64,000 bases of DNA, taken from contig CAWECG010000004.1 of assembly GCA_963807605.1 (NCBI GenBank), positions 224,001 through 288,000 on the forward strand, read 5' to 3'. The position numbers were made by a program, and so were the translations under genes. Source of the DNA: Candidatus Bathyarchaeota archaeon (lineage in GTDB: Archaea; Thermoproteota; Bathyarchaeia; 40CM-2-53-6; RBG-13-38-9). Below, one piece after another: positions 1 through 1,781 of this stretch (its first letter is position 1; every line of letters begins with the position of its first letter). The notes beneath the pieces are model-generated. The model searched no databases. It saw only the letters and a program-made list of their open reading frames with translations, and was not told the DNA's origin.

Positions 1-104
1 GTGATCTTGCTCATGACGCGTTCCTTCACTTGTGGAGAAGTCAACAATGCTTGCTCGTTAATATTGCTAGCAGGTCGAGAAGAGATGGTGTTAAGAGAAT
101 ACAG

Positions 105-246
105 TGGTGGGGTCGGCGGGACTTTCATGACAGCGTCAATTTGAACCCGCGACCGCCAGCGTTCTGGGTAGCTCCCCAGGTTCACCGCGCAGTGCTCTGG
201 TATCCTCTTGGCGGTTTAACCCAAGACCAAGCTAGACGACGACCCC
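105..246 (-). tRNA. tRNA-Pro(GGG) with four putative BHB introns (207-223, 181-196, 162-173, 122-139); CCA encoded
   Basis: Minus strand reads GGGGTCG TC GTCT AGCTTGGTCT[17 nt]A GGAT A CCAG[16 nt]C CT-GGG-G[12 nt]C GCTGG CGGTC GCGGG TTCAAA[18 nt]T CCCGC CGACCCC A CCA. Removing the four inserts gives a 79-nt cloverleaf with perfectly paired acceptor, anticodon and T stems. Confidence 0.92.
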
Positions 247-320
247 ACAACCTTAGCTCTATCTGATTCAGTCTCGCGCTAATAAGATCATTTCTCGTCC
301 ACTAACGGGCATGAGCACGC

Positions 321-1781
321 CTATTCCAGACGGAGATCTTTGAAGGTCTCCTTGAACAATCTCGTCAAGTAATCTTCAGTTCGAAAGCCTCTACCCTTGG
401 CTAACATCTTTATGCTCTTGTCAACACCTGTCGAATACTGCATCGCCTTCTTGGGGGTATCAGCAAGCTTCTCGGGCAGACCAAGATCTCTGCAGGCTTT
501 CCTAAGGATACGTTTTCTCAAACCATCGGTCGGGCTTTCAATCTTCATACTGACAGGTATCGAGAGACCATACATGATGAGTTCCCAGTCAGCGAATGGA
601 TGCAGCATCTTCACTCTCTCAGGCGCGGTGGCTTGTTCACATGCCTGATAACTGTCCTTGTGGGCATCTAGAACCCGATGGAAGATAGCGTCTTCGAGAG
701 CCCGCTCTCCGCCCTGCTTTAACACTTTAAGAAATCCATGGTAACCTGCAAAAAGCTCGTCAGCGCCTTGGCCAGTAAACACAGTCGTGACACCACAGCT
801 CTCGGCCAATTTCGCAGACCAAGAGAGAGGAATTGAGACGCCCAACTTCACTTGGTTCGCCTCCTCTATTCGCCAGAGGCATTTCTTCAGTTGTTCCTCG
901 ATCTGGTCCAACTCGTACTCCTTCGTCTCTGCCTTGATCCCTAGAAGTTCCGCTGACCTCATCGCCAACTCTGTTGCAGGGTGCCCCTTGACTCCAACAA
1001 TAAAGGCGCAGGTTTCAATCTCCAGTTTTGACAAGAGGTACGCCGTTATTGAGCTATCTACACCTCCAGAGAAACTGACGCCAACTCTTTTGAGTCCTCG
1101 TGCCCTTTCAGAAATTGACTTGTGCAGTAGTTTGCCTAGTCGCTCAGAGATCTCCGTCGTTTCTCCACGCAGGGTATTCGATGGTGTGATCTGCTTGATC
1201 GGCCACGGGGGACGATTCGGTTGCAGCTTCCATAGGTGACCAGGAGGAAAGATTAGCGTGTTACGTACTCCAAGCCTCCAGAGGCCTTTACTCTCCGTCG
1301 ACACGGCGGAGAGGTTCTCGTCTGAATAGTAATAGAGTGGTTTTAGACCAACAGGGTCCCTTGCTGCAAAGATCTCTCCGTTTGAGAGAACTGCTAGCGT
1401 GTACTGACCGTCGAATTCCGACACAAATCTTGCCAGAGCCTTCTCCGGGGTCTCTTCGGAAAGATACTCAAGCAACTCATCGAACGTTCCTCCGAAATCA
1501 GTGTAATCACTCTCGACGATGATGGAACGATCCTTAGAGGTTCTGGGTTGAGGGAAATCTCTCGGTTGAAGTCTCATTAGATTGTATGCTATTGCTGATC
1601 TAGTGCTTTGCAGCTCATTGAGGTCGCTGAGGTCTTCAGTGAAGAGCGTTTCTCGTTGTGTAGCAACCCCGAATACGTCGTTACCTCTGTGAAGTTGATT
1701 CTTGATCAGCTGGATGAGGAGTGGAACTGCGTCTGTTCCCTCCTTTGTTCTTATCGCGCTTATTGCTCCCATTCGTGTCAA
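321..1781 (-). CDS. Asparagine synthetase B-like protein (Ntn-like N-domain + ATP pyrophosphatase domain)
   Basis: ARDPVGLKPLYY, SFSGGVDSS PP-loop, GQGADELFAGY and PKKAMQY motifs. No N-terminal Cys. Confidence 0.85.
   Translation of the reverse strand: MTRMGAISAIRTKEGTDAVPLLIQLIKNQLHRGNDVFGVATQRETLFTEDLSDLNELQSTRSAIAYNLMRLQPRDFPQPRTSKDRSIIVESDYTDFGGTFDELLEYLSEETPEKALARFVSEFDGQYTLAVLSNGEIFAARDPVGLKPLYYYSDENLSAVSTESKGLWRLGVRNTLIFPPGHLWKLQPNRPPWPIKQITPSNTLRGETTEISERLGKLLHKSISERARGLKRVGVSFSGGVDSSITAYLLSKLEIETCAFIVGVKGHPATELAMRSAELLGIKAETKEYELDQIEEQLKKCLWRIEEANQVKLGVSIPLSWSAKLAESCGVTTVFTGQGADELFAGYHGFLKVLKQGGERALEDAIFHRVLDAHKDSYQACEQATAPERVKMLHPFADWELIMYGLSIPVSMKIESPTDGLRKRILRKACRDLGLPEKLADTPKKAMQYSTGVDKSIKMLAKGRGFRTEDYLTRLFKETFKDLRLE

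What the first reader, a model, noticed from the sequence alone, without database searches (positions are those of the whole stretch)
105..246. tRNA-Pro(GGG) apparently split by four BHB introns
Seen in sequence: four inserts of 17, 16, 12 and 18 nt at tRNA positions 20b/21, 30/31, 37/38 and 59/60. Each fits bulge-helix-bulge geometry, with central 4-bp helices UGGU/GCCA, UACC/GGUG, CUGG/CCAG and UUCA/UGAA and 3-nt bulges at the splice points. Removing all four gives a clean 79-nt tRNA, and introns make up 63 of the 142 nt. Established: archaeal EndA cleaves BHB motifs, and multi-intron tRNAs are known from Thermoproteales, to my recollection with up to three introns. Inference: four introns may be a record-level case that standard tRNA finders miss. 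The 30/31 BHB uses D-stem and anticodon-stem bases, so splicing probably needs ordered refolding.
Basis: partly seen in the sequence, partly recalled or inferred. Interest (0 to 1): 0.85.

Follow-up and report, generated by a model that had tools for sequence, protein, structure and literature searches.

The report
Four-intron proline tRNA gene, Bathyarchaeia
This is a real, conserved and apparently the only tRNA-Pro(GGG) gene of an uncultured soil archaeon (Bathyarchaeia), cut into five pieces by four short enzyme-spliced introns; it is not a record, because four- and five-intron tRNA genes are already tabulated for Asgard archaea and occur in this genome and in this gene's relatives.

Summary
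Observation confirmed. On the minus strand, window 246..105 holds a 142-nt gene. Removing inserts of 17, 16, 12 and 18 nt (positions 20b/21, 30/31, 37/38, 59/60) gives a 79-nt tRNA-Pro(GGG) that ARAGORN accepts. ARAGORN and Rfam both miss the unspliced locus.

A scanner I wrote, given no boundaries, recovers the same four introns and scores above every shuffled control. Relatives settle the boundaries: some lack 37/38 and 59/60, others lack 20b/21 and 30/31, and the exons are then joined exactly as predicted. All 17 distinct spliced sequences are 76 nt and keep all 21 cloverleaf pairs. The intron helices keep 90-97% pairing, with compensatory changes.

The genome encodes a two-subunit EndA of the crenarchaeal type, with the loop lysine tied to broad specificity, and an RtcB ligase. 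I found no second tRNA-Pro(GGG).

The "record" claim fails:
- A 2024 supplement lists four-intron tRNAs in Asgard archaea, and a 2026 preprint reports up to five.
- This genome's tRNA-Tyr has five.
- Two metagenome contigs carry a five-intron Pro(GGG).
- Earlier runs of this scan reported several four- and five-intron Bathyarchaeia tRNAs on other DNA.

Only 59/60 is a strict BHB. Splicing order cannot be deduced. Verdict: new member of a known kind.

The parts
224..246 (-). Exon 1: tRNA positions 1-20b (acceptor 5' strand, 8-9, D-stem 5' strand, most of the D-loop)
   Evidence: Contiguous with exon 2 in relatives that lack the intron (L020, L027, L028).
207..223 (-). Intron 1, 17 nt, at 20b/21. 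H is UGGU/GCCA, bulges are CU^U and AG^A, h' is 2 bp and the outer helix is 2 bp (relaxed BHB).
   Evidence: Across 27 distinct contexts, H plus h' pair at 90% against 29-55% when the register is slid.
197..206 (-). Exon 2: positions 21-30 (D-stem 3' strand, 26, anticodon-stem 27-30)
181..196 (-). Intron 2, 16 nt, at 30/31. H is U25-A26-C27-C28 paired with GGUG, bulges are AG^A and AA^C, h' is 2 bp and there is no outer helix (HBh' type).
   Evidence: The pair 26:intron changes A-U, U-G, U-A, C-G across relatives. Pairing is 96% against 31-47% when slid.
174..180 (-). Exon 3, 7 nt: positions 31-37, including anticodon GGG (34-36) and G37
162..173 (-). Intron 3, 12 nt, at the canonical 37/38 site. 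H is CUGG/CCAG, bulges are GG^A and AA^C, h' is only 1 bp. The outer helix is 1 bp in the primary transcript and 5 bp after intron 2 is removed.
   Evidence: Absent in L019, L021-24 and L043, where the exons are joined exactly here.
140..161 (-). Exon 4: positions 38-59 (anticodon-stem 3' strand, variable loop, T-stem 5' strand, T-loop 54-59)
122..139 (-). Intron 4, 18 nt, at 59/60. Strict hBHBh': the outer helix is the T-stem (5 bp), H is UUCA/UGAA, bulges are AA^U and AG^U, h' is 4 bp.
   Evidence: Absent in L019 and L021-24.
105..121 (-). Exon 5: positions 60-73 (T-stem 3' strand, acceptor 3' strand, discriminator A73) plus the genome-encoded CCA (window 105-107)
   Evidence: Most tRNA genes of this genome encode CCA.
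279..286 (-). AT-rich box CTTATTAG, 33-40 nt upstream of tRNA position 1. It is a probable TATA-like promoter element.
   Evidence: The same or a near-identical box lies at a similar distance upstream (within a few nt) in most family relatives (L002-L005, L008-L011). That it acts as a promoter is inferred, not shown.

Best explanation
This is the functional, and as far as can be seen the only, tRNA-Pro(GGG) gene of a soil Bathyarchaeia archaeon.

Proposed pathway:
- The gene is transcribed as a precursor of about 150 nt.
- The archaeal splicing endonuclease EndA, here a catalytic-plus-structural two-subunit enzyme of the crenarchaeal alpha2-beta2 kind, cuts two nucleotides into each 3-nt bulge on either side of four 4-bp helices. 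This releases introns of 17, 16, 12 and 18 nt at positions 20b/21, 30/31, 37/38 and 59/60.
- RtcB ligates the five exons into a 76-nt tRNA that already carries its CCA.

Shown here: the anatomy, conservation, compensatory changes, presence/absence of each intron in relatives, and the enzyme genes. Inferred: transcription, cleavage and ligation themselves, and any order of intron removal.
For: 1. ARAGORN calls the spliced product tRNA-Pro(ggg). An independent parser finds the same four introns and scores above every shuffled control.
2. Presence/absence in relatives fixes every boundary. L019 has only 20b/21 and 30/31. L027 and L028 have only 37/38 and 59/60. L020 and L021-24 carry other combinations.
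3. Across 62 genome loci there are 34 distinct precursors and 17 distinct mature sequences. All mature sequences are 76 nt and keep all 21 cloverleaf pairs. Double changes occur at 5:68, 6:67, 49:65 and 50:64, which pair across introns.
4. Introns differ in sequence and length, yet H and h' stay 90-97% paired in register against 24-57% when slid. Compensatory changes include 26:intron as A-U, U-G, U-A and C-G.
5. The four-intron layout occurs in 13 of 15 genomes sampled from the same family and in two other families, and in 25 of 29 metagenome contigs.
6. Enzymes:
   - The EndA alpha subunit has the Tyr/His/Lys triad. Its best structural relatives are the crenarchaeal alpha subunits 2cv8, 3p1z_B and 2zyz_B.
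   - Its K41 and K43 align with K44 and R46 of the Aeropyrum loop that confers broad specificity.
   - A second paralogue lacks the catalytic His.
   - RtcB is present.
7. No other GGG-anticodon tRNA turned up by BLAST of the mature sequence, ARAGORN, Rfam or my scanners. Pro(CGG) and Pro(UGG) are separate genes.
8. The gene lies in a 306-nt gap between two co-directional protein genes. A conserved AT-rich box lies upstream.
Against: - There are no RNA data, so splicing is inferred.
- Three of the four motifs are relaxed rather than strict BHB.
- The 30/31 central helix has predicted probability 0.00 in the full precursor of this gene.
- The genome is 94% complete in 5 contigs, so a second copy in the missing part cannot be excluded.
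- My scanner resolves only about 22 of the roughly 46 tRNAs expected from general knowledge of archaea, so the genome census is incomplete.
Confidence: 0.9

Rival explanations
1. It is a decaying tRNA pseudogene that has accumulated insertions. It is not spliced, and CCU/CCC codons are read by another tRNA.
For: Standard finders do not recognise it. Three of the four motifs are relaxed.
Against: Exons are near-invariant and always splice to exactly 76 nt, with compensatory stem changes across families. The inserts vary but keep their helices. No other Pro(GGG) gene was found. The layout persists in many species.
Confidence: 0.03
2. It is a chance parse. With short permissive motifs, some 142-nt stretch can always be cut down to a cloverleaf.
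For: Permissive BHB rules give about 0.2-0.5 candidate introns per nucleotide. Low-scoring false parses exist in both real and shuffled DNA.
Against: The score lies well above every shuffled control. Relatives that lack individual introns have the exons joined at exactly the predicted junctions.
Confidence: 0.01
3. It is a real gene, but with obligatory ordered splicing. The 30/31 motif and the anticodon stem share C27 and C28, so the precursor must refold between cuts, and removing one intron licenses the next.
For: The shared nucleotides can be read directly from the sequence. The outer helix of 37/38 is 1-3 bp before 30/31 is removed and 5 bp after. Across 16 four-intron genes, removing 30/31 raises the mean probability of the 37/38 helix from 0.49 to 0.88 and of the 20b/21 helix from 0.38 to 0.70. 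The tRNAscan-SE 2.0 paper describes the same dependency for close-set introns (PMC8450103).
Against: The four H/h' hairpins do not overlap and can all be drawn at once (-39.5 kcal/mol against an MFE of -59.4). An enzyme that accepts relaxed motifs may need no order. Predicted dependencies differ between orthologues and even reverse.
Confidence: 0.35

Closest known systems
Four-intron tRNA genes of Asgard archaea: Freyarchaeia Arg-TCT, Ile2-CAT and Leu-GAG; Atabeyarchaeia Trp-CCA and Lys-TTT (Valentin-Alvarado et al. 2024, PMC11291895, Supplementary Data 4). A later Asgard census reports up to five per gene (bioRxiv 10.64898/2026.10.13.758758).
   Same: Four or more short protein-spliced introns in one tRNA gene, mostly at non-canonical positions, and partly missed by standard annotation.
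   Different: The phylum differs (Bathyarchaeia, by the record titles of relatives). So does the isoacceptor: the Atabeyarchaeia-2 and Freyarchaeia Pro(GGG) genes I read in that table have 1 and 3 introns. In the library searched, no paper linked Bathyarchaeia with tRNA introns.
Multiple-intron tRNA genes of Thermoproteales (Pyrobaculum, Thermofilum, Caldivirga; Sugahara et al. 2008, as reviewed in PMC4033280, PMC4090602 and PMC8450103)
   Same: Introns lie at non-canonical positions. The motifs are relaxed hBH / HBh' / BHL forms. The EndA is of the alpha2-beta2 type with a specificity loop. Closely spaced introns can each require prior removal of another.
   Different: The published maximum there is three introns per gene; this gene has four. 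The hosts there are hyperthermophiles. Relatives of this one come from soil and sediment samples.
Five-intron tRNA-Tyr(GTA) of this same genome (G000:C2:53336-53546) and five-intron tRNA-Pro(GGG) on metagenome contigs Ga0315306_10002287 and Ga0315307_1000034
   Same: The motif style and the recurrent sites 30/31, 37/38 and 59/60 are shared. The five-intron Pro gene has the same four introns plus 45/46.
   Different: Each has one more intron than the gene examined here.

Membership tests
Archaeal protein-spliced (EndA/BHB) tRNA introns | Removing the inserts restores a canonical cloverleaf tRNA | tested here: met
   ARAGORN calls the product tRNA-Pro(ggg), 79 nt. All 21 stem pairs are present in all 17 distinct orthologous mature sequences.
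Archaeal protein-spliced (EndA/BHB) tRNA introns | Both splice sites lie in 3-nt bulges separated by a 4-bp helix (strict hBHBh', or the relaxed HBh'/hBH/BHL forms) | tested here: met
   H is 4/4 paired and both cuts fall two nucleotides into a 3-nt bulge for all four introns. The motif is strict only at 59/60 and relaxed at the other three. The register is supported by slid controls.
Archaeal protein-spliced (EndA/BHB) tRNA introns | Orthologues without the intron have the exons joined at the predicted junction | tested here: met
   L019 lacks 37/38 and 59/60. L020, L027 and L028 lack 20b/21 and 30/31. L082 lacks 20b/21 and 59/60.
Archaeal protein-spliced (EndA/BHB) tRNA introns | The host encodes a splicing endonuclease able to cut relaxed motifs, and an RtcB ligase | tested here: met
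   There are two EndA paralogues. The alpha subunit has the catalytic triad and lysines aligned to the K44/R46 loop residues; the second lacks the catalytic His. RtcB scores 575 bits. Enzyme activity itself was not tested.
Archaeal protein-spliced (EndA/BHB) tRNA introns | Excision and ligation observed in RNA | not testable with these tools
   No transcript data are at hand. No contig holding the fully spliced exon string was found in the metagenome collection, which also means no intron-free gene copy there.
tRNA-Pro(GGG) | Anticodon GGG in a 7-nt loop with U33 and a purine at position 37, in a class I cloverleaf | tested here: met
   The loop is C-U-G-G-G-G-C on a 5-bp stem, the variable loop is 5 nt and the discriminator is A73. 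Aminoacylation was not tested.

The most novel reading that the evidence does not exclude
The four motifs may form a built-in maturation cascade. The 30/31 intron sequesters C27 and C28, so the anticodon stem, and with it the strict motif for the canonical 37/38 intron, can form only after the 30/31 intron is removed or the RNA refolds. Splicing would then follow an obligatory order, acting as a folding checkpoint. This layout would have been kept across several Bathyarchaeia families whose tRNA sets may be as intron-rich as the Asgard record holders.
Probability: 0.3. Interest if true: 0.55.

Novelty: new member of a known kind. Interest (0 to 1): 0.4.

Why it matters
- It adds a well-documented case outside Thermoproteales and Asgard in which an essential tRNA can be made only by removing four introns. 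Reviews still give three as the archaeal maximum.
- Routine annotation (ARAGORN, Rfam) would leave this genome without a tRNA-Pro(GGG). That would distort tRNA-complement and completeness estimates for Bathyarchaeia genomes assembled from metagenomes.
- This one gene family has six intron sites, in combinations of two to five per gene. That makes it a compact system for studying intron gain and loss, and for testing how a broad-specificity EndA handles neighbouring, mutually exclusive splice motifs.

Tried and rejected
- ARAGORN, with and without its intron option, and Rfam at gathering score and at E<=10 find nothing at the locus.
- My first scanner timed out and was rewritten. A bug in the third version, a misplaced D-stem slice, was found and fixed.
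- A whole-genome run without a T-loop prefilter timed out.
- The relaxed genome scan added no tRNAs beyond the strict one, so about half of the expected tRNA set stays unresolved and I make no claim about introns per gene for the whole genome.
- My parser's four-intron reading of tRNA-Phe(GAA) is probably wrong. Two 10-nt 'introns' are more likely one 20-nt D-loop intron, so I do not count it as a four-intron gene.
- ARAGORN's 'tRNA-Pro(agg)' at C1:490645-490781 is tRNA-Leu(UAG) with two introns. It is not a second proline tRNA.
- I considered whether the 3' end of intron 2 supplies a surrogate outer helix for the 37/38 motif, as the MFE suggested. I rejected this: the bases involved are not conserved, and the covariation fits the 25-28 helix instead.
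- A leader element complementary to the 3' acceptor strand, an idea from earlier notes, is not conserved upstream of this gene.
- Splicing order from thermodynamic folding is inconsistent among orthologues.
- PMC1852824 (Sugahara 2007) is not held.
- A metagenome search for the fully spliced exon string found nothing.

Full report
**What is there.** The feature lies on the minus strand, from window 246 down to 105 (G000:C4:224105-224246). The 142-nt sequence begins GGGGTCG and ends CGACCCC-A-CCA. Split as 23+10+7+22+17 nt of exon and 17+16+12+18 nt of insert, it yields a 79-nt product. ARAGORN calls this tRNA-Pro(ggg) with a normal cloverleaf. The unspliced locus is invisible to ARAGORN and to all 4227 Rfam models, even at E<=10 on a 400-nt slice.

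**Is it more than chance?** I wrote a parser that walks a cloverleaf grammar and may skip any insert having a 4-bp central helix flanked by 3-nt bulges.
- Given only the acceptor ends, it returned exactly these four introns with score 22.6. The best score in 2.49 Mb of locally shuffled genome was 17.7.
- A second version with a free 5' end also returned them, at 29.6 against a shuffled maximum of 23.3.

**Comparative evidence.** A search of 40 related genomes, a pattern scan of 185,579 species genomes and a scan of metagenome contigs gave 62 genome loci and 29 metagenome contigs.

Record titles name the carriers as Candidatus Bathyarchaeota/Bathyarchaeia from soils and sediments. One of them has the same sequence as the same-genus relative.

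Among the genome loci there are 34 distinct precursors in five architectures:

| Intron sites | Distinct precursors |
|---|---|
| 20b/21, 30/31, 37/38, 59/60 | 16 |
| 20b/21, 30/31, 45/46 | 13 |
| 20b/21, 30/31 | 2 |
| 15/16, 37/38, 59/60 | 1 |
| 37/38, 59/60 | 2 |

Wherever an intron is absent, the exons are joined exactly at the junction predicted for this gene.

All 17 distinct spliced sequences are 76 nt long and keep every one of the 21 stem pairs. Double compensatory changes occur at 5:68, 6:67, 49:65 and 50:64, which are pairs whose halves lie in different exons.

The introns differ in length and sequence, but their central helix H and inner helix h' remain paired:

| Intron | Paired in the predicted register | Paired when the partner is slid 1-2 nt |
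|---|---|---|
| 20b/21 | 90% | 29-55% |
| 30/31 | 96% | 31-47% |
| 37/38 | 95% | 30-53% |
| 59/60 | 92% | 24-50% |

The most telling pair is tRNA position 26 with its intron partner in the 30/31 helix. It appears as A-U, U-G, U-A and C-G.

**Motif quality.**
- Only 59/60 is a strict hBHBh': T-stem 5 bp, UUCA/UGAA, h' 4 bp.
- 20b/21 has 2-bp outer and inner helices.
- 30/31 has no outer helix at all (HBh').
- 37/38 is only 12 nt long, so its 5' cut site sits in what is effectively a loop. Its outer helix, the anticodon stem, is broken by the 30/31 intron: 1 bp in the primary transcript and 5 bp once that intron is gone.

**Machinery.**
- The genome has two EndA paralogues.
- The 188-aa paralogue has the Tyr/His/Lys catalytic residues. 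Its closest solved relatives are the crenarchaeal alpha subunits 2cv8, 3p1z_B and 2zyz_B.
- In the alignment to Aeropyrum pernix alpha, its K41 and K43 fall on K44 and R46 of the Crenarchaea-specific loop. That loop was shown experimentally to confer cleavage of non-canonical and loop-type motifs (PMC3241643).
- The 175-aa paralogue has both EndA domains but lacks the catalytic histidine, as a structural beta subunit would.
- RtcB is present.
- This is the enzyme type that reviews associate with non-canonical and multiple introns (PMC4090602, PMC4033280).

**Is it the only Pro(GGG)?** BLAST of the mature sequence finds its exons only at this locus. None of the following shows another GGG anticodon: the ARAGORN calls, the Rfam tRNA hits or my two genome scans. 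ARAGORN's 'Pro(agg)' is really Leu(UAG). Pro(CGG) (C3:909032-909140, two introns) and Pro(UGG) (C3:325841-325936, one intron) complete the family. The assembly is 94% complete, so a copy in the missing part cannot be excluded. No contig anywhere in the metagenome collection holds the fully spliced exon string.

**Context.** The gene sits in a 306-nt gap between an asparagine-synthase-like gene and an AIR-synthase-related gene, all on the minus strand. An AT-rich box CTTATTAG lies 33-40 nt upstream at a similar distance, within a few nt, in most family relatives. It is a plausible archaeal TATA element, though this is an inference.

**Splicing order.** The 30/31 helix uses U25, A26, C27 and C28, so it cannot coexist with the anticodon stem. 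That conflict can be read directly from the sequence.

Thermodynamic folding gives the following:
- For this gene, the 30/31 helix has probability 0.00 in the full precursor and 0.71-0.91 once 20b/21 and 37/38 are removed. The 37/38 helix is always near 1.
- Across 16 four-intron genes, removing 30/31 raises the mean probability of the 37/38 helix from 0.49 to 0.88 and of the 20b/21 helix from 0.38 to 0.70.
- Individual genes disagree, and some reverse the dependency.
- The four H/h' hairpins do not overlap and can be drawn together, at a cost of 20 kcal/mol relative to the MFE.

I conclude that the motifs interfere with one another, but no order can be deduced.

**Novelty.**
- Reviews and the tRNAscan-SE 2.0 paper give three introns as the archaeal maximum (PMC4033280, PMC8450103).
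- Supplementary Data 4 of Valentin-Alvarado et al. 2024 (PMC11291895) already lists four-intron tRNA genes in Freyarchaeia and Atabeyarchaeia.
- An October 2026 preprint reports up to five intervening sequences per gene in Asgard archaea.
- In this very genome tRNA-Tyr(GTA) has five introns, and ARAGORN accepts the spliced product.
- Two metagenome contigs carry a five-intron tRNA-Pro(GGG), with the same four introns plus 45/46.
- Earlier runs of this scan reported several four- and five-intron Bathyarchaeia tRNA genes on other DNA.
- In the paper library I found nothing that links Bathyarchaeia with tRNA introns.

The gene is therefore a new member of a known kind, not a record.

Noticed in passing
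G000:C2:53336-53546 (+), outside the window: tRNA-Tyr(GTA) with five introns (23, 24, 47, 22 and 21 nt, after mature nucleotides 9, 31, 38, 54 and 60). ARAGORN calls the spliced 77-nt product tRNA-Tyr(gta). That is one more intron than the gene examined here.
   Followed up: partly
L078:4819-4988 (Ga0315306_10002287) and L098:5472-5642 (Ga0315307_1000034): Five-intron versions of tRNA-Pro(GGG), with introns at 20b/21, 30/31, 37/38, 45/46 and 59/60. ARAGORN calls the spliced products tRNA-Pro(ggg). L082:283-395 has a further architecture with only 30/31 and 37/38.
   Followed up: partly
whole genome G000: ARAGORN finds 31 tRNA candidates and Rfam finds 24, and several ARAGORN calls are mis-parses. 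Its SeC(tca) at C3:658649-658741 is Arg(TCG) with a 14-nt intron, and its Pro(agg) at C1:490645-490781 is Leu(UAG). My scanner resolves about 22 genes, nearly all interrupted. About half of the expected tRNA set is still unaccounted for.
   Followed up: partly
G000:C2:53336-53546, C3:29942-30076, C4:65453-65595: Introns just before the last anticodon-stem base (30/31-like), and in two of the three genes also at 59/60, recur in tRNA-Tyr, tRNA-Phe and tRNA-Asn. Their 3' ends are similar (...GTGAA, ...CTGAA, ...TGAAA[CT]). This could reflect a site preference set by the motif or past intron spread; I did not test which.
   Followed up: no
G000:C1:283374-283448 (+): tRNA-Thr(TGT), the best Rfam tRNA hit in the genome and uninterrupted, has a T-loop reading ACCGAAG instead of the usual TTCRA.
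   Followed up: no
G000:C4:303386-303622 (-) and C3:661701-661937 (+); C3:1123606-1124913 (+): These are the splicing machinery genes. The 188-aa catalytic EndA subunit has loop lysines K41 and K43. The 175-aa EndA paralogue lacks the catalytic His. RtcB ligase is also present. All three lie outside the window.
   Followed up: partly
window 321-1577 (-) and window 1-14 onward (-): The flanking genes are an asparagine-synthase-like protein upstream and an AIR-synthase-related protein (PurM/ThiL/HypE type) downstream. The longest ORF of the downstream gene, with a GTG start, would overlap the tRNA 3' half; an ATG at window 14 looks like the likelier start.
   Followed up: partly
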